NCBI GenBank assembly: GCA_949948745.1
Contig: CATLHA010000003.1
Location: 5,708 to 69,707, forward strand
Reading direction: 5' to 3'
Source: an uncultured Bacillales bacterium
GTDB taxonomy: Bacteria > Bacillota_I > Bacilli_A > RF39 > UBA660
DNA length: 64,000 bases
Positions 18,630 to 59,790 of the stretch are shown here, one piece after another; within the stretch, counting starts at the first letter, position 1; every line of letters begins with the position of its first letter. The notes under the pieces were generated by a model. The model searched no databases and was not told the origin of the DNA. It saw only the letters and a list, made by a program, of their open reading frames with translations. A program made the position numbers and the translations under genes.

Positions 18630-18791
18630 ATTCTAGAGTGCTCCTTTAAAATGCTTATATTATAATACAAAATGGACATTCTAGCAATAAAAATTGGAAA
18701 GCCAGTTAAATAAGTTGTTATTTGGTTAACTATATGTTAAACTTGCATTATGAAATTATGTAAATTCTATAATCTAGGTAAATGACTCAAT

Positions 18792-18886
18792 AATAAAAAA
18801 AGACTGCCAAAGCAGTCGCTCAAATAGAGTATTTAGGGTTAAACCTTTATTTTAACTCTCTATGTCATCTTAAATGGTATTAAGAC
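18792..18886 (-). ncRNA. tracrRNA: tracrRNA of the type II-A system (anti-repeat + nexus + terminator hairpin)
   Basis: Minus-strand transcript reads GUCUUAAUACCAUUUAAGAUGACAUAGAGAGUUAAAAU (complementary to the CRISPR repeat with a bulge). It is followed by AAGGUUUAACC nexus-like hairpin and GACUGC-UUUG-GCAGUC + U7 terminator. Confidence 0.65.
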
Positions 18887-18892
18887 AATTAC

Positions 18893-18922
18893 ATAATAGC
18901 ATGATATTAGGAGGTGTGTCAA
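18893..18922 (-). promoter_or_regulatory. Putative sigma-A promoter for tracrRNA (TTGACA-N18-TATTAT) embedded in the cas9 5' region
   Basis: Minus strand reads TTGACAcacctcctaatatcatgcTATTAT ending ~7 nt upstream of the anti-repeat. Confidence 0.45.
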
Positions 18923-21900
18923 TTGGAAAATAATAAAAAATATAATATCGGTCTAGACATAGGAACAACTTCCGTTGGATGGGCAGTAGTAGAATGTGAA
19001 AACCAAAAAATAATCAGAAAAGGAAATAAAGCTCTATGGGGAGTTCGATTATTTGAGGAAGCAAATACTGCAGCAGATAGAAGAAACAAACGAAGTACTA
19101 GAAGACGCTATGATAGAAGAAGAGAGAGAATAAGATTACTACAGGAAGAATTTAAAGAAGAAATTAATAAAATTGATTCTAATTTTTTTACAAAATTAAA
19201 AGAATCTTTTTATCATGAAGACGATAAAGAAAACAAAACTATTCCATTAACAAAAGAAGAGAAAGAGACAATCAAAGAATATAATAACAAATACAAAACG
19301 ATCTATCATTTAAGAAATAAGCTAATAAATTCTACAGAAAAAGAAGATATCAGATTAGTTTATCTAGCAATTCATCATATTATAAAATATCGAGGAAATT
19401 TTCTTTATAATAGTGATAACTTCAGTGTAGAAAATTTAAACTTAGAGACTCAAATAGAAACAATATTAAATTCAGCAATTAATTTTTGTCCATCTTTAGA
19501 ATGTCCGACAGACTATAAAGAATATATAAAAATTAATGATCTTTCTATAGCACTTTTGGATTCTTCTAAAAATGATCGAAAAGTAAAAGTTCAAAAAATA
19601 TTGGAATCAATTCTTCCTAAAATTTTTGTAAGTGAATTTATAAAACTAATAAATGGAAACAAATTCAATATTATAAAAATGATAGGATTAGAAAATATAG
19701 ATAAACTGGAAATTAGTTTTAATGGAACCGATTATGAAGAAAAATACAATGAACTTGAATCCATTCTTGGAGATTCCATTGAAGTACTTGATAGTATGAA
19801 ACAATTATATGATATGGTTTTTCTAAAAAGGTTATTTAAATCAAGTGAAAGCACAAATATTTCGGCCTTAATGGTTGAAAAATACGAATTACACAAAAAA
19901 GATTTAAAATTTTTAAAATCTATTTTAGATATTGATCGAAAAATTTATAATAAAATTTTTAAAAGTAGAAAAGAAATCTGTCCTTACGAAAATTACATAA
20001 AAAATAAAATAACTAATGAAGAATTCGTGAAGGAAATAAAAAAATATTTACCAAGTATTTTTGAAAAAAACATCAATCAAGAACTACTTACCTATTATGA
20101 AGCTAACATTCAAAAACGTATGGAGAATGGAGATTTTCTACCTCGAATTACTGATAAAGACAATGGAAAATACCCATATCAATTAAATAAAGAAGAATTA
20201 ATCAAAATTATTGAAAACCAAGGAAAATATTATCCATTCTTACTAGATAAAACAAAAGATGATACTTATAAACTTGTTAAATTATTAGAGTTTAGAATTC
20301 CATATTATGTTGGTCCATTGACAGAGGAAAGTCATAGTAAATTTGCTTGGATGATTCGAAAAAACTATAACGAAAAAATTACTCCTTATAATTTTGATGA
20401 CATAATCGATAAAGAAGCAACGGCAGAAAAATTTATAAAAAGAATGATTTCTCATTGTACTTATTTATTAGAAGAACCAGCAATGCCCAATAATTCTATT
20501 CTCTATTCAAAATATAAAGTAATGAATGAACTAAAGCAAATTAGAATCAACGGAAAAAAAATGTCATGCGATATGCAGAATAAAATTTTAAGAAATTTAT
20601 TTATGACTACAAGCGGGAATATCACAGATAAAAAATTTAAAGAATATTTATATGCTAATAAGGATTTTGATATGTATCAAGGTGACTTTAATATTACAGG
20701 ATATTCAGCAGATGGAAAATTTGCAAATACAATGCAATCCTATATAGATTTCTTCGGTGAAAATGGAATCTTTAGTAACACTAATTATACCTTAGAAGAG
20801 GCAGAACAAATTATTGAATGGATTACAATATTTGAAGATAAAGATATTTTAAAAACAAAAGTAGAAAGGGACTACCCATTACTTAATGATTCCCAAATTA
20901 AAAAAATTATTTCTAAAAAATATAGTGGTTGGGGAAGTTTATGTAAGAAATTATTAACAACTAAATACTATGTTGATAAGGAAAGTGGAGTTACAAAATC
21001 AATTATAGATTTAATGGAAGAGACAGAAAATAATTTCATGCAGATTATCAATGATGATACCTATAATTTTCAAAAGATGATTAAGGAAAATAATAAAATA
21101 GATGTAACTCAAAAATTAAATTATAGTGTAGTCGAATGCCTAGCAACTTCTCCCTCAACAAAGAGAGGTATCTATCAAGCCCTAAGGGTAGTCGATGAAA
21201 TCGTAAAATATATGAAAAAAGAGCCAGAGGCAATTATGGTAGAAATGGCTCGAGGTGATGATCAAAAGAAAAGAAAAGATGACCGTAAAAAATATTTAAT
21301 AAAACTATATGAAAAAGCCAAAGAAGAAATTGAGGATTACAATCAACTAATGCAACAACTAGGAAAATTTGAGAAAATTGATAGTCAAAAATTATTTCTT
21401 TATTTTATACAAGAAGGAAAAAGTTTATATTCTGGAAAACCACTGAATATTGAAGATTTAGCTACTTACGAAATTGATCATATTATTCCAAGAACTTTAA
21501 TTAAAGATGACTCAATTGATAATAAAGCTTTAGTATATAGAGAAGAAAATCAAACAAAGGCCGCTAACTATATTCTTCCCAGGGAATTCAGAAGCCAATT
21601 CAATAGAGCATGGTGGGAACATTTAAGGAAAATTGGGTTAATTTCATCTAAAAAGTTTCATAATCTAATTCGTTCTGAGTATAAAGAAGAAGAAATAGAA
21701 AACTTTATCAATCGTCAATTGGTAGAAACTAGACAAATAACCAAACATGTAGCAAATATTCTAAATAGCTATTACAAAAATACACAAGTTGTCTATTTAC
21801 ATGCTGATTTGTCACATAATTATCGAGAGAAATTCGAGTTATTTAAATTTAGAGATATAAATGATTATCATCATGCACATGATGCTTATTTGGCGGCAGT

Positions 21901-22957
21901 TTTAGGTGAATATAAAGAAAAGTATTTAAAATGTAAAGTTAATTTTGAGATGCTAAAAGAATTAAATAAAAGCTTAATTGAACAAAAAGATTATAAAAAG
22001 CTGAAATATGGATATGTAATTAATAGCTTAGATAGTTCTATGAATGATGTTATGAAAGAAGTTGTTTCTATTCACTTTGATGAAAAAACTGGAGAAGTAC
22101 TATTTGATGCAGAAGAGTTTAATAGAAGAGTAGAAGACACTTTATATCGAAATGATATTTTGATTAGTAGAAAACCAGAAATAAAAACAGGACAATTATA
22201 TAAGGAAACAATATATTCTCATAATGACGCAAAGATTAAGTCAGGAATTAAAATATCTAAAACGTTACCAGTAGAAAAATATGGTTTCTATACAAATATA
22301 GAATATTCTTATTTAGTATTGGTAAAAGTTAAAGAAAAAAACTATATGTTTGGTATTCCAATTATGTATGACAATAAAATTGATAAAGCAAAATATATTG
22401 AAGAAAAATTAAAAGTAAGCATTGATGATTATGAAATAATATGTGATAGGATTCCATTTTATACTAAAATTAATTATCATGGACATCTAGCTTATTTAAC
22501 AGGTAGTATTGAATTTTGGAATGCTTATCAGTTAAAGATATCAAAAAAATCTATGAAAAAATGGAAATACATGTTAAATTTTGCATTAAATGATAAGAAA
22601 ATCCCTGTTATTGATAACCAAGAAGTTTTAACTGAACAAGAAGTAAATAAACAAATGCTTGAATTTATTAAATACTTACTATCATTACATGAATTATTTC
22701 CTTTATATAATAATACTTTCAAGAAACTAGAAAAGATAGATATTGAAAATCTAGATATGGAAAAGAAAAAAATACTTATTAAAGAATTATTAAAAATGTT
22801 ATCAGCAAGCAGTATGAATGCTAATTTAAAAGAATTTGGACTTACTGATAGAGAAGGTAGAGTACATAAATCAAATATAGGAGAAGGTACGTTAATATAT
22901 AATTCAATTACTGGTATAAGAGAAAAAACAATTGTTATAGAAGGAAAAAGAAAATGA
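18923..22957 (+). CDS. cas9: Type II-A CRISPR endonuclease Cas9
   Basis: RuvC-I IGLDIGTTSVGWAVV, Arg-rich bridge helix, HNH EIDHIIPRTLIKDDSIDNKALV, RuvC-III DYHHAHDAYL; 1345-1347 aa. TTG 18923 (9 nt after AGGAGG) preferred over GTG 18914. Confidence 0.95.
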   Translation: MENNKKYNIGLDIGTTSVGWAVVECENQKIIRKGNKALWGVRLFEEANTAADRRNKRSTRRRYDRRRERIRLLQEEFKEEINKIDSNFFTKLKESFYHEDDKENKTIPLTKEEKETIKEYNNKYKTIYHLRNKLINSTEKEDIRLVYLAIHHIIKYRGNFLYNSDNFSVENLNLETQIETILNSAINFCPSLECPTDYKEYIKINDLSIALLDSSKNDRKVKVQKILESILPKIFVSEFIKLINGNKFNIIKMIGLENIDKLEISFNGTDYEEKYNELESILGDSIEVLDSMKQLYDMVFLKRLFKSSESTNISALMVEKYELHKKDLKFLKSILDIDRKIYNKIFKSRKEICPYENYIKNKITNEEFVKEIKKYLPSIFEKNINQELLTYYEANIQKRMENGDFLPRITDKDNGKYPYQLNKEELIKIIENQGKYYPFLLDKTKDDTYKLVKLLEFRIPYYVGPLTEESHSKFAWMIRKNYNEKITPYNFDDIIDKEATAEKFIKRMISHCTYLLEEPAMPNNSILYSKYKVMNELKQIRINGKKMSCDMQNKILRNLFMTTSGNITDKKFKEYLYANKDFDMYQGDFNITGYSADGKFANTMQSYIDFFGENGIFSNTNYTLEEAEQIIEWITIFEDKDILKTKVERDYPLLNDSQIKKIISKKYSGWGSLCKKLLTTKYYVDKESGVTKSIIDLMEETENNFMQIINDDTYNFQKMIKENNKIDVTQKLNYSVVECLATSPSTKRGIYQALRVVDEIVKYMKKEPEAIMVEMARGDDQKKRKDDRKKYLIKLYEKAKEEIEDYNQLMQQLGKFEKIDSQKLFLYFIQEGKSLYSGKPLNIEDLATYEIDHIIPRTLIKDDSIDNKALVYREENQTKAANYILPREFRSQFNRAWWEHLRKIGLISSKKFHNLIRSEYKEEEIENFINRQLVETRQITKHVANILNSYYKNTQVVYLHADLSHNYREKFELFKFRDINDYHHAHDAYLAAVLGEYKEKYLKCKVNFEMLKELNKSLIEQKDYKKLKYGYVINSLDSSMNDVMKEVVSIHFDEKTGEVLFDAEEFNRRVEDTLYRNDILISRKPEIKTGQLYKETIYSHNDAKIKSGIKISKTLPVEKYGFYTNIEYSYLVLVKVKEKNYMFGIPIMYDNKIDKAKYIEEKLKVSIDDYEIICDRIPFYTKINYHGHLAYLTGSIEFWNAYQLKISKKSMKKWKYMLNFALNDKKIPVIDNQEVLTEQEVNKQMLEFIKYLLSLHELFPLYNNTFKKLEKIDIENLDMEKKKILIKELLKMLSASSMNANLKEFGLTDREGRVHKSNIGEGTLIYNSITGIREKTIVIEGKRK

Positions 22958-23826
22958 GTTTTAGGACAGTTGTAGTTACAAAGCAATCTAAATTAAGCTA
23001 TAAGAATCGTTTTTTAGTAGTCAAGCAAGAAGGAGAAGAAAAATATATTCATTTATCAGAAATAGATACAATTATAGTAGATTCTATTTCAGTATCTATT
23101 TCTGCCTATTTATTAAAAGAATTATCAGATAATAAAATTAATATTATGTTCTGTGATGAAAAGCATAATCCATTTGGTGAATTATCTTCGTATTATTCTA
23201 GACATAACTCAAGTAAAAAAATAAAAATACAGATACAATGGAAGCAAAAAGAAAAAGATGAAATATGGAAAGAAATTGTAAAGAATAAGATTATGAATCA
23301 AGCTTTATTAATCAATAAAATATCATCAGAAAATTATGACTTGTTATTAAGTTATATTGATGAAGTTCTAATTGGTGATAAAAGCAATAGGGAAGGACAT
23401 GCTGCTAAGGTCTACTTTAATACGTTATTTGGAAAAAACTTTGTTAGAAATAATGACGATTCAATCAATGCTGCTTTAAATTATGGATATGCAATCCTTT
23501 TATCTACAATTAATAAGGAAGTAGTTGCAAATGGTTTTTTAACGCAGCTAGGAATTCATCACAAGAACGAATTTAATGAGTTTAATCTTACTTGTGATTT
23601 AATGGAGCCATTTCGAGTAGTCATAGATAATTTTGTTTATTATAATCAAAAACGAGAACTAAACACAGAATATAAATTAGATATTGTAAATATTCTTAAT
23701 GATACTTTTAAATATCAAAATAAATCATATATTCTAAAAGATATTATTAAGATGTATGTTAAAAATGTGTTGGATTCTGTAGGCAATGTTGAAAATTATA
23801 AAGGATTTATTTATTATGAGGGATAG
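22954..23826 (+). CDS. cas1: CRISPR-associated endonuclease Cas1 (type II)
   Basis: MSFRTVVV...IDTIIVDS N-terminus typical of II-A Cas1; start overlaps cas9 stop (ATGA). Confidence 0.9.
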   Translation: MSFRTVVVTKQSKLSYKNRFLVVKQEGEEKYIHLSEIDTIIVDSISVSISAYLLKELSDNKINIMFCDEKHNPFGELSSYYSRHNSSKKIKIQIQWKQKEKDEIWKEIVKNKIMNQALLINKISSENYDLLLSYIDEVLIGDKSNREGHAAKVYFNTLFGKNFVRNNDDSINAALNYGYAILLSTINKEVVANGFLTQLGIHHKNEFNEFNLTCDLMEPFRVVIDNFVYYNQKRELNTEYKLDIVNILNDTFKYQNKSYILKDIIKMYVKNVLDSVGNVENYKGFIYYEG

Positions 23827-24136
23827 AGTCATGAGAACAATGGTATTTTTTGATTTACCAAATATTTATGCTAAAGATAAAAGAAATTATATATTATTTA
23901 GAAAATTTCTGTTAAATGAAGGTTTTATTATGATGCAAGAATCTGTATACTCTAAAATGATACTTAATTCACAACAATCTAATTTATTGATTGATCGAAT
24001 TAGAAAAAAAGCACCAAAAAAAGGATTAATTCAAGTGTTGACCATTACCGAAAAACAATATTCGCAGATTGAATATGTTATTGGACAAAAGGATAGTAAA
24101 ATTATAGATAGTGAGGATAGATTAATAGTCTTATGA
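23816..24136 (+). CDS. cas2: CRISPR-associated endoribonuclease Cas2
   Basis: MRTMVFFDLP...KFLLNEGFIMMQESVYSKM closely resembles streptococcal II-A Cas2; exact start (23816 or 23831) uncertain. Confidence 0.85.
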   Translation: MRDRVMRTMVFFDLPNIYAKDKRNYILFRKFLLNEGFIMMQESVYSKMILNSQQSNLLIDRIRKKAPKKGLIQVLTITEKQYSQIEYVIGQKDSKIIDSEDRLIVL

Positions 24137-24819
24137 AAATGAGTATTAGATATATTGATAATGAAATTTTAATAGAGCAGGGGAGTGTTACAGTAGTAGA
24201 GATTGAAAACAAATCATACTTTTATAATGTGATTAGTGAATTATATTCATTTATGAATGGAGAAGTAGTAGATACTATTAAGTTTTTTGACAATTCATCA
24301 AAGGAAATAATGATGACTGGGAAAATTGAAATACTTTTAAACTTTTTTAACCTCCAGTTTGATTCTAAGAAATATATAAGTGAATTAACAAAGCGTATTT
24401 CTAATGAAGTTACAGAAGAGCAAAGAGATGAAATAATAAAAATTTTTAAGAGATTACAGTCAATTTATAAAAAAATGCTTAATAACATTGATTTACCTTT
24501 ATCAATAAATTCTGATATAAATATAGATTCTATTAGTAAAATACTGAAAATAGAAATTAAAACAAAAAATAGTTTATTAGAGAATCTTTTGACAATAATT
24601 GACTTAGAAAGGGAATTAAAACTCCACAAATTATTATATTTTGTTAATTTAAAGCAATATTTACACATAGATGAACTAAAAGAGTTATATAAATACGCAA
24701 TATATAATCAAATAAATATAGTTTTAATTGATTCACAAAGTTATGGAACAACCCTTGAATATGAAAGAAAATTAATTATAGATAACAATTTGGATGAATT
24801 TATGTTAGAATATAAGTGA
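24133..24819 (+). CDS. csn2: Csn2 (short form), type II-A signature protein
   Basis: 228 aa, position after cas2 and before leader/array; start overlaps cas2 stop (ATGA). Confidence 0.8.
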   Translation: MKMSIRYIDNEILIEQGSVTVVEIENKSYFYNVISELYSFMNGEVVDTIKFFDNSSKEIMMTGKIEILLNFFNLQFDSKKYISELTKRISNEVTEEQRDEIIKIFKRLQSIYKKMLNNIDLPLSINSDINIDSISKILKIEIKTKNSLLENLLTIIDLERELKLHKLLYFVNLKQYLHIDELKELYKYAIYNQINIVLIDSQSYGTTLEYERKLIIDNNLDEFMLEYK

Positions 24820-24889
24820 TGACAAATGATTTTCTATTTAAGATGCATAGTTTTCTCTAGAACTATGAATAGATTTAAATCAATTTGAG

Positions 24890-25875
24890 GTTTTAGATCT
24901 ATGTCATCTTAAATGGTATTAAAACACGACAATGATCCTCACATTTCTAAATTAGTTTTAGATCTATGTCATCTTAAATGGTATTAAAACATTTAATGAA
25001 TTCATCAAATCTGACTCTTCGTTTTAGATCTATGTCATCTTAAATGGTATTAAAACTTAATACACTAGTTTCTAAACATATAGGCAGTTTTAGATCTATG
25101 TCATCTTAAATGGTATTAAAACAAAGATCCTGCAGAAATTGATAAAACATATGTTTTAGATCTATGTCATCTTAAATGGTATTAAAACTAATTATTTAAA
25201 TGTTGATTATGTTTCTAAGTTTTAGATCTATGTCATCTTAAATGGTATTAAAACAGCATTTAAAGGTGAAATTTCATATGATAAGTTTTAGATCTATGTC
25301 ATCTTAAATGGTATTAAAACAGATAATAGAGGAATTATATAACTTGTTGAGTTTTAGATCTATGTCATCTTAAATGGTATTAAAACAAAAATAAATAATT
25401 AGTTTTAAACATATCTGTTTTAGATCTATGTCATCTTAAATGGTATTAAAACAAGTGCGGTTGCTAATCCTTCCATAATAGTGTTTTAGATCTATGTCAT
25501 CTTAAATGGTATTAAAACAGATATAAATGAAAACTCTATTGCTTTAACGTTTTAGATCTATGTCATCTTAAATGGTATTAAAACATACTCTATGATATCA
25601 GATTGACTTTCAATGTTTTAGATCTATGTCATCTTAAATGGTATTAAAACTACTGGTATTTTTTTAGAAGATTATCAAAAGTTTTAGATCTATGTCATAA
25701 TTGTATTAAAACATTTTGAAGAAGTTTATAAATTAACAATTTAAATGGTATTAAAACTGCAAAGTGGATATACATATTATGTGCTTTGTTTTAGATTTAT
25801 GTCATCTTAAATGGTATTAAAATAAAAGTAACAACAAAAGTACCTGAATTAAAGTTTTAAATCTATGTCAGCTAG
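24890..25875 (+). CRISPR. CRISPR1 array: 36-bp repeat GTTTTAGATCTATGTCATCTTAAATGGTATTAAAAC, 12 intact units with 30-nt spacers then decayed distal units
   Basis: Repeats start at 24890, 24955, 25021, 25087, 25153, 25219, 25285, 25351, 25417, 25483, 25549, 25615. Internally deleted repeat at 25681-25712, 17-nt half repeat at 25741-25757, mutated repeats at 25789-25824 and 25855-25871. 70-nt leader 24820-24889. Confidence 0.95.
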
Positions 25876-25953
25876 GAATGATAACAAAAAAAAGTTTATC
25901 ATTCTTTATTTTTGTGATAAACTTAAAGTAAGAATAGAATAGGGTGTGTTGTA

Positions 25954-51700: not shown

Positions 51701-52132
51701 AACTTAGTAATATTTAAGATGACATAAATCTAAAACCACGTTCTTTTTTAGTACCCAATATTGCTAGTTTTAATACCATTTAAGATGACATAGATCTAAA
51801 ACTGAATATATAATCACTTATGATATAACAGAGTTTCAATACCATTTAAGATGACATAGATCTAAAACTCAGAAAAAATATAATTAGAATTAATATAAGT
51901 TTCAATACCATTTAAGATGACATAGATCTAAAACATCAAATTGGAATCGATGACAGGTATGTATGTTTCAATACCATTTAAGATGACATAGATCTAAAAC
52001 GTTGTAGTCTCCTGTTTCAAAGCTCCATCAGTTTCAATACCATTTAAGATGACATAGATCTAAAACCCTGTGTATTGTTCGTACACAAAATTTTCTGTTT
52101 CAATACCATTTAAGATGACATAGATCTAAAAC
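51701..52132 (-). CRISPR. CRISPR2: orphan array in inverted orientation, same 36-bp repeat with one SNP (...TATTGAAAC), 6 spacers
   Basis: Plus strand shows the reverse-complement repeat GTTTCAATACCATTTAAGATGACATAGATCTAAAAC at 51833, 51899, 51965, 52031, 52097. The 51767 repeat has the CRISPR1 allele, and a degenerate terminal unit lies at 51701-51736. Leader-homologous sequence sits at 52133-52206. Confidence 0.9.
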
Positions 52133-52231
52133 CTCAAATGTTATTTAAATCTAGTTTGATAGTTCATAGAGAAAACTATTATCTTAAATGGAAAATCATA
52201 TGTCACTAACTTTATTTTAGCACAAATTCGT

Positions 52232-52348
52232 CTAAATTTCATCAATGATTAACTTTTTTTTATAATTCAAAGTAGTTCCATAACATTGTGAATCAACTAA
52301 GACTATATTTACTTGATTATATATTGCATGTTTATATAGCTCTATTAA
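52232..52348 (-). pseudogene. csn2: csn2 3'-terminal remnant (last ~38 codons) adjacent to the CRISPR2 leader
   Basis: Minus-strand frame translates LIELYKHAIYNQVNIVLVDSQCYGTTLNYKKKLIIDEI*, against intact Csn2 C-terminus LKELYKYAIYNQINIVLIDSQSYGTTLEYERKLIIDNN; frame opens directly after a TGA. Confidence 0.7.
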
Positions 52349-52539: not shown

Positions 52540-53756
52540 CTATAAATCAGATATCTTCTGTTTAATTTTCTCACCATGCAACGCTGTAACATCTTCGTGA
52601 TGTTGCTGTAAATAATTTTTTAATGCAAAAATAATTTCTTCTGCTGTTATATTTTCTAAATTAGCTTCTAATCGGTATTGAATTAGTTGCTCAATAAAAT
52701 CTCTAACATAATCAAAGTCTCCAAAATCCACTTGACAATAAAATTCACCATCATCAAAATGATAAAAAGTAATATTTCGACTATCTCGAAGGCAACCAAA
52801 TTCCCTTGATAATAAAAATGCATTTCCTGTCGAAATTAACTCACAAATTACTTCATCACATAAAGTTTTAGAATCTAGGTAATTAGAAAGAATAAGATCA
52901 CTACCAATAATTCTAACTTTAGTAGTAACATCTTCTTCCCAAGAATCCATTACTCCATGAACTACTCTTTTAGAAAAATATTGAAGAGTTCTAGAAGAAT
53001 ATTTTTCCCCTTCATAAACAGAGATTAGTTTACTAATAATATCACTAATAACTACAGAATCAAAAGAAGAATATTGGTGAAGTAATAATATGAACTCGGC
53101 TAATTTTTTCTTTAATAAATCAGTTTCCGTTTTATTTTCAGATAACTGTGTAGAATAAGAAGAAATAATCTTCTTCTTTGCTTCTTCTAATTCTCTACTC
53201 CTATTGTTTAAAATATCTTCTTTTTCTTCTAAAGAAGACTGAATTTTTTCTTGTTGTTTTGAAATCAAAGTAAATAAAGATTCTTGTTCTTCTCGAATTT
53301 CTTCATTTATCGAAGATACCATATCATCCTTCTTTTCTTCTGTTTTTTCTTCTTTCTCCTTTAAAATACCGACTGGTAATTGTAAATCACTCACACTACC
53401 ATCATAATGTAAAGTACCACAACAAATCTTTAATTCCCAAACTTTTTGTCTTTTTTCTTTTATCAAATAAATAGTAGACTCATAACATGGTGCACCACAC
53501 AATCCACTATAACCATTATGTTGGTGATTGTGCCAACGATTAATTTCAATCTCAACAAGATCTCCATCTATATTCATAAATTGTACTTTTCCATTTTCAT
53601 TATAAAATTTTTTTCTACTTCCCAACCAACATTTTCATATAAATGATGTTGTTCTTTATTATAGTAACAATTAGCCCCATTTTGATGTTCTAAAACAATC
53701 TTTTTTACTTTCTCATATAATAATGTCCCTGTTTCTTTTTCAATTTCTATCATAAT
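52540..53756 (-). CDS. Hypothetical protein, apparently split by a frameshift at an A7 run (53608-53614). A 45-codon N-terminal frame (53756 start) is followed by the 361-aa ORF
   Basis: ATG 53756 frame MIEIEKETGTLLYEKVKKIVLEHQNGANCYYNKEQHHLYENVGWEVEK... stops 15 codons after the A7 run. The ORF-track 361-aa frame begins within it, and one extra A would fuse both. Confidence 0.4.
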
Positions 53757-54752: not shown

Positions 54753-55460
54753 TCATTTAATATAACCTTTATACTTTAAATAAGCACATAACTCTGGACA
54801 AATATTATTTAAATCTATTTTAGTATTTTCTAAACAATAATTAAAAATATCCCTAAGATTAGAACTACTATTTTTTAAATAGCAAACTTTTATTTTATCA
54901 CTGTTAATCTTATGATCAGTGAAAGTATGCATATTCCACTTATCCATTATGGTGGTATCTAAATTCGAATATTTTTCAGAATAACCGCATATCTCTAAAT
55001 GTTTCTTTATATAACCTCGAGACTTTATTTCATCCTCATCATCGCAACTAAAATCTACATTCTCCTCTAATTCCAACTTTAAGAGAATTCCGTTATTTAG
55101 AATTTTATCAAGACTTCTAAATGCTCTTTTTTGATGCAGTTTACTTACTTTTAAAATTTTAAAATAACTATTACCTATCATATTAGGAAACCATTTATGT
55201 CTTAAGAAGAAAGCACCTAGTTTATAGATAAATGGAATTACAGGCACCTAATATAATGCATTAATCCAACAATCAAATAAGATCAATAGGTTATCCAAGC
55301 CCTCTACAAAAAATATTTTTCTAGTTTTTTCTATATTTTTAGCATGACTTCCAATATTTGGAATCAATCCTTTAGATTGAATTGATTCTAAATTTTTTCT
55401 ATCTGTAAAATGAAAATAATTAGAATTTAAACTTTCATCATTCAATATATACTTTCTCAT
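54753..55460 (-). pseudogene. Gene interrupted by an in-frame TAG (70-aa + 164-aa ORFs in the same frame). N-terminus resembles DarT/DUF4433-type toxins, tentative
   Basis: ORFs 55248..55460 and 54753..55247 are contiguous in one frame separated only by TAG at 55248-55250. N-terminal motif YFHFTDRKNLESIQSKGLIP. Confidence 0.4.
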
Positions 55461-55565: not shown

Positions 55566-55650
55566 TGGTGCGGGTAACAGGAGTTGAACCTGCAAGCCTT
55601 GCGGCGCTAGATCCTAAGTCTAGTGCGTCTGCCAATTCCGCCATACCCGC
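55566..55650 (-). tRNA. tRNA-Leu (anticodon UAG)
   Basis: Minus-strand cloverleaf GCGGGTA...TACCCGCACCA, anticodon loop CUUAGGA, long variable arm, encoded CCA. Confidence 0.85.
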
Positions 55651-55656
55651 ATTTAG

Positions 55657-55733
55657 TGGTGGACCCTGATGGACTCGAACCATCGACCGTTCGGTTATGA
55701 GCCGAATGCTCTAACCAACTGAGCTAAGGGTCC
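55657..55733 (-). tRNA. tRNA-Met (anticodon CAU, elongator-type; could be lysidine-modified Ile2)
   Basis: Minus-strand GGACCCTTAGCTCAGTTGGTTAGAGC...anticodon loop CUCAUAA...GGTTCGAGTCC...AGGGTCCACCA, 77 nt with CCA, paired 1:72. Confidence 0.8.
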
Positions 55734-56344: not shown

Positions 56345-58102
56345 CTATTTTTGGCCTTTTTCTGTAATATTAATACCCAATTCTTGTAATTGTTTATCAT
56401 CAACCAAGTTTGGACATTCACTCATTAAACAAGATGCGCTAGCAGTTTTAGGGAATGCAATGACATCTCGAATATTTTCAGTTCCAACAAGTAACATTGT
56501 TAATCGGTCAAGTCCTAAAGCAAGTCCTCCATGAGGTGGAGTTCCATAATTGAATGCTTCTAAGAAGAAACCAAATTTTTCTTTTGCTTGTTCCAAAGTA
56601 AATCCTAACGCTTCAAACATTTTAGCTTGAACATCTGCCTGATGGATACGAATACTTCCACCACCTGCTTCATATCCATTAATAACAATATCATAAGCCT
56701 TAGAATAACAATTTGCCTTATCATTCAACAACTTATCAATATCTTCATCTTTTGGTGCTGTAAATGGATGATGACATGCCATAAATCTTCCTTCTTCTTC
56801 ACTATATTCGAAGGATGGGAAATCTACAACCCACAATAATTTATAATCATTTTTATCAATCAAATCTAAATCACGAGCTAATTTGATACGAAGCTCTCCA
56901 AGAGCTGTTTTAGTAACATTATATTTATCCGCAACAATTAAAATTAAATCATTTTCTTCAATTTCTAACTGTTCTTTCATAGCATGAAGCTCTTCTTCTG
57001 TAACTACTTTACGAATACTTCCAGAAAATTCCCCTTCACTATATTTTAACCATGCAAGACCTGAAGCACGATAAGTTTTAACATATTCTGTAAGTTTATC
57101 AATTTCTTTTCTAGAATACTTATCAGCACAATTTTTACCAACAATACATCCTACTTCTCCATTTGCATTTAAAACATTTTGAAATACAGTAAACTCCGTA
57201 TTTTTAAAAATGTCATTCAAACTTTGAATCTTCATTCCAAAACGTAAATCTGGTTTATCGCTACCATAATCACGAATTGCGTCTACATATTTCATTCTTT
57301 GTAAAGGTAAAGATAATTCGATACCCTTCATTTCTTTAAATACTTTCGCAAGTAAACGTTCTGTAGTAGAAATAACATCATCTTCATCAACAAAGCTCAT
57401 TTCAACATCGACTTGAGTAAATTCAGGTTGGCGATCAGCTCTTAAGTCTTCATCCCTAAAACATTTTGCAATTTGATAATACTTTTCCATTCCACCAATC
57501 ATTAGTAACTGTTTAAAAATTTGAGGAGATTGAGGTAATGCATAAAATTTACCATGATTTACACGAGAAGGAACCAAATAATCTCTTGCTCCCTCTGGTG
57601 TAGACTTACATAAAACAGGTGTCTCTACTTCAACAAATTCTTCCTCATAGAAGAAATTTCGAATGACATTCATAAGTTTACTTCTTACCATTAAGTTACT
57701 TTTTAAAGTAGGACGTCTTAAATCTAAGTAACGATACTTTAATCTAGTATCTTCTAAAGCTGTAGTATCATCACTAATTTCAAATGGTAAATCACCAGCC
57801 ATACTTTCTAATACTAAATCAGTAACGATAACCTCAATTTCACCAGTAGGAATTTTACTATTTTTACTTTCCCTTTCCACAACTTCACCAGTAGCTTTAA
57901 TGACAGACTCTGTTTTTAAACTACTAGCAAGTTCATAAAATTTATTTTCAGGTCGAACAACTAATTGAATAATACCACTTCTATCTCTTAAATCAATAAA
58001 TACTAATCCACCAAGATTTCTTTTTTTAGAAACCCAACCACATAATTCAACTGTTTGTCCAACATTATTTATATTAAACTCTACATTATTACATTTTTTC
58101 AT
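56345..58102 (-). CDS. aspS: Aspartate--tRNA ligase
   Basis: Class II aaRS motifs (FRDEDLRADRQPEFTQVD, GGGSIRIH, GLDRL), N-terminal OB anticodon-binding domain; ~585 aa. Confidence 0.9.
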   Translation of the reverse strand: MKKCNNVEFNINNVGQTVELCGWVSKKRNLGGLVFIDLRDRSGIIQLVVRPENKFYELASSLKTESVIKATGEVVERESKNSKIPTGEIEVIVTDLVLESMAGDLPFEISDDTTALEDTRLKYRYLDLRRPTLKSNLMVRSKLMNVIRNFFYEEEFVEVETPVLCKSTPEGARDYLVPSRVNHGKFYALPQSPQIFKQLLMIGGMEKYYQIAKCFRDEDLRADRQPEFTQVDVEMSFVDEDDVISTTERLLAKVFKEMKGIELSLPLQRMKYVDAIRDYGSDKPDLRFGMKIQSLNDIFKNTEFTVFQNVLNANGEVGCIVGKNCADKYSRKEIDKLTEYVKTYRASGLAWLKYSEGEFSGSIRKVVTEEELHAMKEQLEIEENDLILIVADKYNVTKTALGELRIKLARDLDLIDKNDYKLLWVVDFPSFEYSEEEGRFMACHHPFTAPKDEDIDKLLNDKANCYSKAYDIVINGYEAGGGSIRIHQADVQAKMFEALGFTLEQAKEKFGFFLEAFNYGTPPHGGLALGLDRLTMLLVGTENIRDVIAFPKTASASCLMSECPNLVDDKQLQELGINITEKGQK

Positions 58103-58119
58103 AATCATAACTTCTTTCT

Positions 58120-59520
58120 TTATTCATTTTCTTCATGAGAATGGCAATCGCAATGATTACCACATCCACAGTTTCCTTCTCCATTACAATGACATTCATG
58201 ACCTTCTTCATGTTCATGACTACATCCACAATCGCAATCTGCATCATCTTCGCTCATCAAATGTTCATCAAGGTAATAAAGAATATAATCAATATCAACT
58301 AATTCCTCTTCTTTTGTCTTATTATTCTTAATTTTTACTTGATTATTTTCTAAATCAGTATCATTTAAAATAATTAAGAACCTACTATTTAGTCGATCTG
58401 CTTGTTTAAATTGTCCCTTTAACCCTCTATTTGTGTATTCTGTTTCTACTGAAAAACCATTCATACGAAGTTCTTGAACTAAAGTAGTTGCGTACTCTTT
58501 TTCTGTATCAGAAACATACATTACAAAAGCATCTAGACTATTGTTAATTGGTAATTCTACTTGTTCTTTTTCTAAAGCAAGCATAAGTCTTCCAAGTCCC
58601 ATCGCAAAACCGATTCCAGGAACTTCTGGACCACCTAATGCTGATACAAGGCCATTATAACGACCTCCACCACCTAAAACATTTTGACTTCCAAATCCTT
58701 CAATATCTGCTTCAATTTCAAATACTGTATGATCATAATAATCTAATCCACGTACAATCGATGGATTCACTTCAAAATCAATATCTAATAAATTTAAATA
58801 TTTTTGAACCATTTCAAAACGTTTCTTACTTTCTTCATTCAAGTAATCAGTCATGACTGGTGCATTTTTCATAATCTCAGTATCAGCATCTACTTTACAA
58901 TCTAAAACACGAAGAGGATTCTTTTGTAAACGAACCTTACAATCTTCACATAATGAATCCACATGTGGCATAAAGTGTTCTACTAAAGCCTTACGATAAT
59001 TATCTCTAGATTCCTTATCACCTAATGAATTAATATTTACCTTAATCCCTTTTAATCCTAAAATTCTATAAATATTAACAGCCAGTGAAATAACCTCAGC
59101 ATCGATCATTGGATCATCACTACCAAGTACTTCAACACCAAACTGGGTAAGTTCTCTATCTCTTCCGGATTGAGGACGTTCATAACGATACATTGTACCA
59201 TTATAATAAAGTTTAACTGGTTGTGTAGCATCTCCATACATTTTATTTTCGATAAAACTACGAACAACTCCAGCTGTTCCTTCTGGACGAAGAGTGATAC
59301 TACGATCCCCTTTATCTTTAAAATCGTACATTTCTTTACTTACAACATCCGTTTCTTCTCCAATTCCACGATGATATAACTCACTCGCTTCAAAGATAGG
59401 TGTACGAATAAAATCGTAGTTATATCTTTCACAAACAGCATCAATTACATTTGATACATATTTCCACTTCTTAGCTTCATCGCCATAAATGTCATGACAT
59501 CCTTTTTGTTTTGTTATCAT
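58120..59520 (-). CDS. hisS: Histidine--tRNA ligase with unusual Cys/His-rich C-terminal tail
   Basis: HisRS motifs (KWKYVSNVIDAVCERYNYDFIRTPIFE, RPEGTAGVVR, GGGRYNGL). Last ~45 aa CDCGCSHEHEEGHECHCNGEGNCGCGNHCDCHSHEENE; start MITKQKG. Confidence 0.9.
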   Translation of the reverse strand: MITKQKGCHDIYGDEAKKWKYVSNVIDAVCERYNYDFIRTPIFEASELYHRGIGEETDVVSKEMYDFKDKGDRSITLRPEGTAGVVRSFIENKMYGDATQPVKLYYNGTMYRYERPQSGRDRELTQFGVEVLGSDDPMIDAEVISLAVNIYRILGLKGIKVNINSLGDKESRDNYRKALVEHFMPHVDSLCEDCKVRLQKNPLRVLDCKVDADTEIMKNAPVMTDYLNEESKKRFEMVQKYLNLLDIDFEVNPSIVRGLDYYDHTVFEIEADIEGFGSQNVLGGGGRYNGLVSALGGPEVPGIGFAMGLGRLMLALEKEQVELPINNSLDAFVMYVSDTEKEYATTLVQELRMNGFSVETEYTNRGLKGQFKQADRLNSRFLIILNDTDLENNQVKIKNNKTKEEELVDIDYILYYLDEHLMSEDDADCDCGCSHEHEEGHECHCNGEGNCGCGNHCDCHSHEENE

Positions 59521-59524
59521 ATTT

Positions 59525-59790
59525 TCCTCTTCCTTTCTTTTTCTGCTAAAAAATAAAAAGGTAACACTACAAAGGACGAATTTTACTTCGTGGTGCCACC
59601 TTATTTTCATAATTTCTTATGCTTAAAATCTTTAACGCAGAATTACGTTTCTTTTAATAGAAAGTGTCTTCATTAACTCCTAATCGATATTTTCACCAAC
59701 CATATCTTCTCTAAAATTAGGAATATTAATTACTCTTCTTTCCAAGAATCTATTATTATTTTACAACATTTTTTTATAAAATTCAAGAAA
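59525..59790 (-). promoter_or_regulatory. T-box riboswitch leader of the hisS-aspS operon
   Basis: Minus strand contains T-box sequence AAUAAGGUGGCACCACGAAG whose 5' half can pair with downstream CUUUGUAGUGUUACC + U-run (terminator/antiterminator alternative). AGAGA-containing stem I region upstream. Confidence 0.55.

What the first reader, a model, noticed from the sequence alone, without database searches (positions are those of the whole stretch)
18792..25875. Complete type II-A CRISPR-Cas locus with divergent tracrRNA
The locus runs tracrRNA(-), cas9, cas1, cas2, csn2, a 70-nt leader and a 16-unit array; cas9 motifs are in the feature entry. The tracrRNA lies divergently just upstream of cas9. 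Its anti-repeat pairs with the 5' 22-24 nt of the repeat, with a bulge (ACTCT versus GAT). It is followed by a nexus-like hairpin (GGUUUAACC) and a GACUGC/GCAGUC terminator hairpin plus U7. This is the S. pyogenes-like tracrRNA arrangement. The array supplies 15 spacers for protospacer/PAM searches.
Basis: partly seen in the sequence, partly recalled or inferred. Interest (0 to 1): 0.6.

Follow-up and report, generated by a model that had tools for sequence, protein, structure and literature searches.

The report
Ordinary, active type II-A CRISPR-Cas9 locus
This is a complete and apparently working CRISPR-Cas9 immune system of the familiar Streptococcus pyogenes type, in an uncultured gut bacterium of the class Bacilli; it is well built but ordinary, with a second, previously unnoted spacer array 26 kb away.

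Summary
The finding is confirmed. Window 18795-25889 holds tracrRNA (minus strand), cas9, cas1, cas2, csn2, a 70-nt leader and a 16-unit array. All four Cas proteins pass the curated NCBIfam/Pfam thresholds.

The tracrRNA is supported by:
- a near-consensus promoter and a terminator on the minus strand;
- a full-length but sub-threshold Rfam tracrRNA match;
- a -38 kcal/mol duplex with the repeat;
- compensatory changes in relatives.

- The anti-repeat pairs with 32 of the 36 repeat bases, not 22-24.
- A third small hairpin lies between the nexus and the terminator.
- cas9 starts at TTG 18923.
- Only 12 repeats are intact.

Additions:
- A second array with a csn2 remnant and its own leader lies at 52132-51701 on the minus strand.
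- Both arrays gain spacers at the leader end in sibling strains.
- One sibling spacer matches a phage tail gene 30/30, with a TGG flank.
- The leaders can form the known hairpin with the first repeat.
- The tracrRNA promoter overlaps the cas9 start codon, so the cas9 promoter is unresolved.

Hundreds of 58-62% identical Cas9 relatives exist in metagenomes. Verdict: a new member of a known kind, of low interest.

The parts
18795..18886 (-). tracrRNA, about 92 nt. Anti-repeat 18886-18849; nexus AGG-UUUAAC-CCU 18846-18835; hairpin 1 CUC-UAUUU-GAG 18829-18819; terminator stem 18817-18802 plus U7 18801-18795.
   Evidence: Rfam RF02348 34.7 bits, E=6e-4, full model length. Terminator scan. Cofold with the repeat -38.4 kcal/mol vs -10.1 +/- 2.5 for shuffles. 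20 distinct relatives keep the three-module tail with different stem sequences. The duplex is 99.3% paired with 3 compensatory pairs, reached by 0 of 500 shuffles.
18893..18922 (-). Predicted tracrRNA promoter: TTGACA (18922-18917), 18-nt spacer, TG-extended TATTAT (18898-18893). The predicted transcription start is near 18886. The promoter overlaps the cas9 ribosome-binding site (GGAGG 18910-18914) and start codon.
   Evidence: 11 of 12 consensus positions plus TG. The -35 and -10 elements are conserved in L001-L003. The cas9 start lies 35-43 nt from the tracrRNA 5' end in 22 of 24 distinct relatives.
18923..22957 (+). cas9, 1344 aa, TTG start. The RuvC-I D (IGLDIG), RuvC-II E (VEMAR), HNH (EIDHIIP) and RuvC-III (HHAHDAY) motifs are intact.
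   Evidence: Pfam REC, PI, RuvC, HNH and bridge helix. TIGR01865 838 bits. Full-length match to SpCas9 chains, E about 1e-147. The exact 1344-aa protein is in the public collection. Motifs read from the translation.
22954..23826 (+). cas1 (type II), 290 aa.
   Evidence: TIGR03639 314.6 bits; PF01867.
23831..24136 (+). cas2, 101 aa. Alternative start at 23816 gives 106 aa; the mechanical ORF begins at 23786.
   Evidence: TIGR01573 68 bits. Gene calls in L004 and L060.
24133..24819 (+). csn2, 228 aa, short canonical form.
   Evidence: TIGR01866 134.7 bits; PF09711. Weak matches to solved Csn2 structures.
24782..24889 (+). Predicted pre-crRNA promoter ATAACA-18-TGnTAGAAT (24782-24811) and the 70-nt leader (24820-24889). 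The leader holds an anti-repeat-like stretch CTATTTAAGATGCATAG (24834-24850) and ends in ATTTGAG next to repeat 1.
   Evidence: Promoter scan. The same extended -10 and the ATTTGAG end occur in five leaders. A leader:first-repeat hairpin is predicted in all five, z -2.7 to -4.9.
24890..25889 (+). CRISPR array 1. Repeat GTTTTAGATCTATGTCATCTTAAATGGTATTAAAAC. 12 perfect repeats (24890-25650), then 4 decayed units. 15 spacers of 29-30 nt, one truncated to 27 nt.
   Evidence: Strain variants share the trailer-end spacers and differ at the leader end.
51701..52132 (-). CRISPR array 2: 7 units and 6 spacers. The five leader-proximal repeats carry A32G; the sixth is identical to the array 1 repeat; the terminal unit is degenerate.
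   Evidence: Strain variants share the oldest spacer and differ at the leader end.
52133..52345 (-). Leader of array 2 (52202-52133, ends in ATTTGAG) preceded by a remnant of roughly 140 nt of the csn2 3' end, with stop codons and a frameshift.
   Evidence: Pairwise alignment with the csn2 3' end plus leader 1 (85% mean column identity over the whole 372-column alignment, which includes an unrelated 5' part).

Best explanation
This is a functional type II-A CRISPR-Cas9 adaptive immune system in an uncultured Bacilli genome (NCBI MAG GCA_949451585.1).

Shown by the sequence and comparisons: the parts, their conservation, spacer turnover between strains, and one phage target.

Inferred from the established S. 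pyogenes pathway:
1. The two arrays are transcribed from promoters at the csn2 3' end (array 1) and at the csn2 remnant (array 2).
2. The divergently transcribed tracrRNA of about 92 nt pairs with each repeat. The duplex has a 6-7 bp lower stem, a bulge, and a 25 bp upper stem.
3. RNase III and Cas9 process the duplex.
4. Cas9 loaded with crRNA and tracrRNA cuts matching phage DNA next to a 3' PAM. One protospacer suggests an NGG-compatible PAM (TGG).
5. Cas1, Cas2, Csn2 and Cas9 insert new spacers at the leader-repeat junction marked by ATTTGAG. They act in trans on the second array, which has no cas genes beside it.
6. A leader segment folds onto the first repeat, as described for II-A systems.
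For: Gene content and domains. Catalytic motifs are intact.

tracrRNA:
- Promoter and terminator.
- Rfam match.
- Duplex energy.
- Near-identity across loci whose Cas9 is only 59-61% identical, with conservation dropping sharply after the U-run.
- 20 distinct tails keep the nexus, hairpin 1 and terminator using many different stems. These include G-U pairs that would be A-C mismatches on the other strand.
- Three compensatory repeat:anti-repeat pairs, reached by 0 of 500 shuffles. Repeat variation falls at positions 7-8, which are the predicted bulge.

Activity:
- Array 1 and array 2 both differ between sibling strains at the leader end and share their trailer-end spacers.
- The five leader-proximal repeats of array 2 carry A32G while the older repeat does not. 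This fits copying from a mutated first repeat.
- The newest spacer of sibling strain L058 matches IMG/VR contig L059 30/30 inside a major-tail-protein gene, with the 3' flank TGGTATG.

Leader:
- All five leaders end in ATTTGAG and share an extended -10.
- The leader:first-repeat hairpin is predicted in all five.
- The leader element covaries with repeat position 19: G opposite C in the window, A opposite T in L001-L003.
- This hairpin is a known II-A feature (PMC12080349, citing Liao et al. 2022).
Against: - There are no expression data, so transcription starts, RNA ends and processing are all predicted.
- None of the 21 spacers in the window matched the phage or plasmid collections, the six spacer segments tried in IMG/VR (4 x 21-22 nt, 2 x 18 nt), or the window itself.
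- The PAM rests on a single protospacer from a sibling strain, whose Cas9 is assumed rather than shown to be the same.
- The Rfam score is below the gathering threshold.
- The C-terminal 364 aa of Cas9 gives no phmmer hit to any solved Cas9 on its own. PAM-reading residues therefore cannot be assigned with confidence.
- RNase III was not looked for.
- The cas9 promoter was not located.
Confidence: 0.93

Rival explanations
1. The repeat-like stretch upstream of cas9 is not a tracrRNA gene. Instead it is a stand-alone degenerate repeat read on the plus strand as part of the cas9 5' UTR. It would then act as a crRNA-like regulatory RNA, the kind of repeat-like element described near cas genes.
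For: On the plus strand, 18849-18886 looks like a repeat (repeat finder family D3). cas9 transcription probably has to cross this DNA, because the tracrRNA promoter overlaps the cas9 start. Plus-strand promoter-like sites lie upstream of it.
Against: The minus strand carries a near-consensus promoter at the right distance and the only terminator found. The Rfam tracrRNA match is on the minus strand. In relatives the tail hairpins keep pairing through G-U wobbles that work only in the minus-strand RNA. The system has no other tracrRNA candidate: a scan of the whole window for anti-repeat matches found only this site outside the arrays themselves. A plus-strand transcript could exist alongside the tracrRNA, but not in its place.
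Confidence: 0.03
2. The locus is a decaying relic. The genes look intact, but the system no longer acquires spacers or interferes with phage.
For: The trailer end of array 1 is decayed, with a 4-nt deletion, a half repeat and degenerate units. Array 2 has lost its cas genes and keeps only a csn2 fragment. No spacer in the window strain itself has a known target.
Against: All four ORFs are full length with intact catalytic motifs. There are 12 perfect repeats. Sibling strains with identical Csn2 carry different leader-end spacers in both arrays. A newest spacer matches a phage perfectly. Trailer-end decay is normal for II-A arrays (PMC12080349).
Confidence: 0.04

Closest known systems
Streptococcus pyogenes SF370 type II-A CRISPR-Cas9 (SpCas9, tracrRNA, short Csn2)
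   Same: - Gene order: tracrRNA(-), cas9, cas1, cas2, csn2, leader, array.
- 36-nt repeat beginning GTTTTAGA and 30-nt spacers.
- Duplex with a lower stem (GUUUUA:UAAAAU), a bulge and an upper stem, followed by GUUAAAAUAA-GG nexus.
- Leader ending in ATTTGAG.
- Cas9 aligns over its full length with SpCas9 chains (E about 1e-147).
- One protospacer flank (TGG) is compatible with NGG.
   Different: - The tracrRNA 5' end is only 37 nt from the cas9 start, and its promoter overlaps the cas9 ribosome-binding site and start codon.
- There is no repeat-like partner upstream that could make a tracr-L-type natural single guide. The S. pyogenes tracr-L/Pcas circuit is described in PMC11417352.
- The anti-repeat pairs with almost the whole repeat.
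- The PAM-interacting region is too divergent to match any solved Cas9 on its own.
- A second array without cas genes is present.
Cas9 loci of uncultured gut Bacilli ('Candidatus Coprovivens sp.', 'Clostridium sp. CAG:451', Bacilli MAGs L001-L003)
   Same: Cas9 is 58-62% identical over 99% of its length. The repeat is nearly identical, differing by one base in L001 and L002. The anti-repeat and nexus are identical. The same overlap of tracrRNA promoter and cas9 start occurs, and the leaders end in ATTTGAG.
   Different: This is a different species-level Cas9 cluster; the nearest other cluster is 81% identical. Hairpin 1 is shortened to 3 bp in the window. A second array was not seen in the stretches of those relatives that were fetched.
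Leader RNA:first-repeat hairpin of type II-A systems (Liao et al. 2022, as cited in PMC12080349)
   Same: Each of the five leaders examined carries an anti-repeat-like stretch. It is predicted to pair with the first repeat, and it covaries with repeat position 19.
   Different: This is predicted only. The effect on production of the extraneous crRNA or on spacer prioritisation was not tested here.

Membership tests
Type II-A CRISPR-Cas | cas9 signature gene with RuvC and HNH nuclease domains | tested here: met
   TIGR01865 838.5 bits against a cutoff of 100. Pfam REC, PI, RuvC, HNH and bridge helix. Catalytic motifs seen in the translation.
Type II-A CRISPR-Cas | csn2 downstream of cas1-cas2 (the gene that marks subtype II-A) | tested here: met
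   TIGR01866 134.7 bits against a cutoff of 35; PF09711. The gene order cas9-cas1-cas2-csn2 is on one strand.
Type II-A CRISPR-Cas | type II cas1 and cas2 adaptation genes | tested here: met
   TIGR03639 314.6 bits; TIGR01573 68.2 bits.
Type II-A CRISPR-Cas | tracrRNA with an anti-repeat complementary to the CRISPR repeat, followed by a nexus and a terminator hairpin | tested here: met
   Cofold -38.4 kcal/mol vs -10.1 +/- 2.5. Rfam RF02348 E=6e-4, below the gathering score. Terminator. Covariation in relatives.
Type II-A CRISPR-Cas | array of 36-nt repeats and about 30-nt spacers, read in the cas gene direction, with the leader at the csn2 side and the degenerate repeat at the far end | tested here: met
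   Spacer differences between strains at the leader end.
Type II-A CRISPR-Cas | the tracrRNA and crRNAs are actually expressed and processed by RNase III | not testable with these tools
   No transcriptome data are available. An RNase III gene was not searched for.
Type II-A CRISPR-Cas | spacers derive from mobile elements, with a PAM 3' of the protospacer | tested here: inconclusive
   One 30/30 protospacer in a phage major-tail-protein gene, flank TGG. It comes from a sibling strain's spacer. None of the window's own 21 spacers matched anything.
S. pyogenes-type tracrRNA arrangement | tracrRNA gene upstream of cas9 on the opposite strand | tested here: met
   Minus-strand promoter, RNA and terminator at 18922-18795; cas9 starts at 18923 on the plus strand.
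S. pyogenes-type tracrRNA arrangement | a second, longer tracrRNA form (tracr-L) that folds into a natural single guide and represses the cas promoter | tested here: not met
   The 200 nt upstream on the minus strand hold no repeat-like partner for the anti-repeat: best duplex -10.9 kcal/mol against shuffles at -14.1 +/- 2.4. The only other minus-strand promoter-like site would start 8 nt upstream of the main one.
II-A leader:first-repeat hairpin | a leader segment base-pairs with the first repeat | tested here: met
   Predicted in all five leaders, z -2.7 to -4.9 against leader shuffles. The leader element covaries with repeat position 19. This is prediction only.

The most novel reading that the evidence does not exclude
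In this clade the tracrRNA promoter shares DNA with the cas9 ribosome-binding site and start codon. cas9 therefore has to be transcribed either from a promoter embedded in the anti-repeat DNA or from upstream of the tracrRNA terminator.

In the second case the cas9 5' UTR would be a perfect antisense partner of the whole tracrRNA, about 90 bp. The levels of tracrRNA and cas9 mRNA would then be coupled through head-on transcriptional interference and RNase III cleavage of the duplex. That would be an autoregulatory circuit different from the tracr-L/Pcas repression of S. pyogenes.
Probability: 0.15. Interest if true: 0.45.

Novelty: new member of a known kind. Interest (0 to 1): 0.15.

Why it matters
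Scientifically it matters little. It adds one more canonical II-A system, already deposited in a public MAG, in a clade with hundreds of 58-62% identical Cas9 relatives.

Practical value:
- A defined Cas9, tracrRNA and repeat set from an uncultured AT-rich gut Bacilli lineage, whose PAM-interacting region is divergent. It could be tested as an ortholog.
- A host-phage link, from the spacer to IMG/VR contig IMGVR_UViG_3300045988_102513.
- A natural example of a csn2-remnant array that still acquires spacers in trans.

The conserved overlap of the tracrRNA promoter with the cas9 start is the only feature that might repay an experiment.

Tried and rejected
**Protospacer and PAM searches for the window's own spacers, all negative**
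- blastn of both arrays against 50,697 phage records found only chance hits, plus Listeria 'phage' records that themselves contain similar II-A arrays.
- All 21 spacers against plasmids: nothing better than 27/30 at E>=2.
- No second copy of any spacer in the window at up to 6 mismatches.
- Six spacer segments against IMG/VR. Four gave 0 hits. Two 18-mers gave 9 hits that extend to only 19-24 of 30 positions, which is chance.
- One spacer segment against the metagenome contigs: 0 hits.
- 31 spacers from sibling strains against phages: no match.

**Other dead ends**
- Assigning PAM-reading residues: the C-terminal 140 aa and 364 aa gave no usable match to solved Cas9s. A by-eye alignment to the SpCas9 C-terminus, recalled from memory, would keep R1333 and replace R1335. 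It is not reliable, and the TGG flank does not settle it.
- RNAalifold on a MAFFT alignment of tracrRNA tails recovered only the invariant nexus, because the alignment is not structure-aware. I replaced it with per-sequence folds.
- tracr-L-type natural single guide: rejected.
- A literature search for the repeat sequence found no paper.


Full report
**1. Observation**

Between 18914 and 24819 the plus strand carries four consecutive ORFs.
- The first has the Cas9 REC, PI, RuvC, HNH and bridge-helix domains. It scores 838 bits on NCBIfam TIGR01865.
- The next three match type II Cas1 (TIGR03639, 315 bits), Cas2 (TIGR01573) and the II-A marker Csn2 (TIGR01866, 135 bits against a cutoff of 35).
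- The translation shows the RuvC-I aspartate (IGLDIG), VEMAR, EIDHIIP and HHAHDAY motifs.
- Cas9 most likely begins at TTG 18923, 8 nt after GGAGG. That exact 1344-aa protein is in the public collection, whereas the version starting at GTG 18914 is not. Relatives start at the aligned ATG.
- cas2 is most likely 23831-24136, as in the gene calls.
- The stretch from the csn2 stop to the first repeat is exactly 70 nt.

The array has 12 perfect copies of GTTTTAGATCTATGTCATCTTAAATGGTATTAAAAC from 24890 to 25650, with spacers of 29-30 nt. Four decayed units follow:
- a repeat with a 4-nt deletion (25681-25712);
- an 18-nt 3' half-repeat (25740-25757);
- a copy with two substitutions (25788-25823);
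- a degenerate terminal copy from 25854.

**2. The tracrRNA**

The minus strand from 18886 to 18795 reads:
GUCUUAAUACCAUUUAAGAUGACAUAGAGAGUUAAAAUAAAGGUUUAACCCUAAAUACUCUAUUUGAGCGACUGCUUUGGCAGUCUUUUUUU

Evidence from the window:
- It co-folds with the repeat at -38.4 kcal/mol, against -10.1 +/- 2.5 for 500 shuffled anti-repeats.
- The pairing has 7 bp (repeat 1-7), a bulge (repeat A8 opposite GAG) and 25 bp (repeat 9-33). The mature crRNA would presumably retain only the first ~22, by analogy with S. pyogenes (from memory, not tested).
- A promoter scan finds TTGACA, an 18-nt spacer and TG-extended TATTAT on the minus strand (18922-18893, 11 of 12 positions). It places the start at about 18886.
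- The only terminator in the region is GACTGC-TTTG-GCAGTC plus T7 at 18817-18795, also on the minus strand.
- Rfam's tracrRNA model matches 18797-18885 on the minus strand end to end, at 34.7 bits and E=6e-4 in a 401-nt search. This is below the gathering score of 70.
- No other anti-repeat candidate exists in the window outside the arrays.

Evidence from relatives:
- Three GTDB species representatives, all uncultured Bacilli MAGs, have Cas9 only 59-61% identical. They nevertheless keep the promoter, anti-repeat and nexus almost unchanged. Conservation collapses right after the U-run.
- A metagenome scan with the nexus motif gave 29 true relatives.
- Their 20 distinct tails all keep an invariant nexus (AGG-N6-CCU), a small hairpin 1 and a terminator hairpin.
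  - Hairpin 1 stems: CUC/GAG, CUCA/UGAG, CUCAC/GUGAG, CUCGU/ACGAG, CACA/UGUG, CUUAC/GUGAG.
  - Terminator: at least eight different stems.
  - Several stems contain G-U pairs that would be A-C mismatches on the other strand.
- For nine repeat/tracrRNA combinations the duplex is 99.3% paired. It has three pairs changed on both sides, which 0 of 500 shuffles reach, and two wobble changes. The repeat varies at positions 7-8, exactly where the bulge is predicted.

**3. What else belongs to the system**

*A second array.* Array 2 lies on the minus strand at 52132-51701, with 7 units and 6 spacers.
- Upstream of it are a leader much like the first one and about 140 nt homologous to the csn2 3' end, with stop codons and a frameshift (the alignment as a whole has 85% mean column identity).
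- It is therefore either a partial duplication or the remnant of a second II-A locus.
- Its five leader-proximal repeats carry A32G and the older one does not.
- A32G still pairs with the tracrRNA as G-U.

*Both arrays are active in the population.*
- Sibling strains, with identical Csn2 or LysR neighbour proteins, share the trailer-end spacers.
- They carry different leader-end spacers in array 1 and in array 2.
- Array 2 has no cas genes beside it, so adaptation there must work in trans.

*A phage target.*
- The newest array 2 spacer of strain L058 matches IMG/VR contig IMGVR_UViG_3300045988_102513 at 30 of 30 positions.
- The match lies inside a gene that hits the PHROG major tail protein family. 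The neighbouring genes encode terminase, portal, major head and tape-measure proteins.
- The 3' flank is TGGTATG. This is compatible with an NGG PAM, but it is a single observation.

*Leaders.*
- All five leaders examined end in ATTTGAG and share an extended -10 (TGnTAnAAT) at the csn2 3' end.
- Each carries an anti-repeat-like stretch: CTATTTAAGATGCATAG at 24834-24850 in the window, ATACCATTTAAAAT in L001-L003.
- This stretch is predicted to fold onto the first repeat, with z of -2.7 to -4.9 against leader shuffles.
- It covaries with repeat position 19.
- This is the leader:first-repeat hairpin already described for II-A systems (PMC12080349 citing Liao et al. 2022).

**4. An unresolved point**

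The tracrRNA -35 hexamer abuts the cas9 start codon, and the cas9 ribosome-binding site lies inside the tracrRNA promoter spacer. In 22 of 24 distinct relatives the cas9 start is 35-43 nt from the tracrRNA 5' end. There is no room for a separate cas9 promoter between them.

Two candidates remain:
- a weak ATGTCA-16-GACAAT inside the anti-repeat DNA;
- sites upstream of the tracrRNA terminator. In the window this is TTGCAT-19-TATAAT at 18743-18773, and extended -10 sites sit at similar positions in many relatives.

The second option would make the cas9 5' UTR antisense to the entire tracrRNA. In AT-rich DNA such consensus matches are weak evidence, so only 5'-end mapping can decide.

A tracr-L-type long form, as in S. 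pyogenes (PMC11417352), is not supported. The 200 nt upstream on the minus strand have no repeat-like partner for the anti-repeat.

**5. Comparison with known systems and novelty**

- Cas9 aligns over its full length with SpCas9 and other solved II-A Cas9 chains (E 1e-147 to 1e-163).
- Its C-terminal third is too divergent to hit them on its own.
- More than 7000 homologs score E<=1e-50. The nearest other cluster is 81% identical.
- Most of the 120 best hits listed are 58-62% identical. They include proteins that NCBI names Cas9 from 'Candidatus Coprovivens sp.' and 'Clostridium sp. CAG:451'.
- The window is identical to contig CASTSA010000003.1 of GCA_949451585.1.
- No paper in the library contains the repeat sequence.

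All testable defining features of type II-A are met. The one S. pyogenes feature that was tested and not met is tracr-L. The locus is a new member of a known kind.

**6. Verdict**

The corrections concern the extent of pairing, the extra hairpin, the cas9 and cas2 starts, and the decayed array tail. The additions are the second active array, the leader hairpin, one phage target and the promoter overlap. Interest is low, at 0.15.

Noticed in passing
window 51701-52345 (minus strand): A second CRISPR array of 7 units, with its own leader and a remnant of about 140 nt of the csn2 3' end. It lies 26 kb from the cas genes and in the opposite orientation. Its repeats differ from array 1 at position 32 (A to G) in the five leader-proximal copies.
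   Followed up: yes
window 24890-25889 and 52132-51701: The two arrays are inverted relative to each other, with their trailer ends facing the 26-kb segment between them. Recombination between them could invert that segment and swap the distal parts of the arrays. The oldest intact repeat of array 2 is of the array 1 type, which could reflect such an exchange or simply the ancestral state.
   Followed up: no
window 25876-25920: An AT-rich hairpin (GAAUGAUAA...UUAUCAUUC) followed by UUUAUUUUU lies right after the terminal repeat. It may terminate the pre-crRNA. The terminator scan missed it because it has only 2 G-C pairs. The fold z-score is -2.5, and an alternative hairpin is possible.
   Followed up: partly
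window 52540-53753 and 54753-55460 (minus strand): Two genes are split in this strain but fused in sibling strains: 345+59 aa here against 404 aa in L051 and L058, and 164+70 aa here against 235 aa in L051-L055. These are probably frameshifts or assembly errors. Neither product has a family match.
   Followed up: no
window 59569-59749 (minus strand) and 56345-59610: A T-box leader (94.8 bits, just above the gathering score) lies upstream of the hisS and aspS genes. Two tRNA genes are at 55569-55733 on the minus strand.
   Followed up: no
L040, L046, L048 (metagenome relatives): These loci carry tracrRNA-like copies with a normal nexus and terminator but a different 5' flank and no cas9 start within 140 nt. 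In L046 a repeat-like sequence sits next to the copy. They may be rearranged or orphan tracrRNA genes.
   Followed up: no
phage collection records OR846895.1, OR848241.1, OR848714.1, OR847561.1: Records labelled 'Listeria phage' match the array periodically at 65-71% identity. This is the pattern expected if they contain a Listeria type II-A CRISPR array, that is host DNA, rather than protospacers.
   Followed up: no
L063 8063-8687: In one sibling strain a gene with a Rep_OBD domain (plasmid or phage replication initiator) lies just downstream of the UvrD-like helicase that follows array 1. It is absent at that place in the window strain.
   Followed up: no
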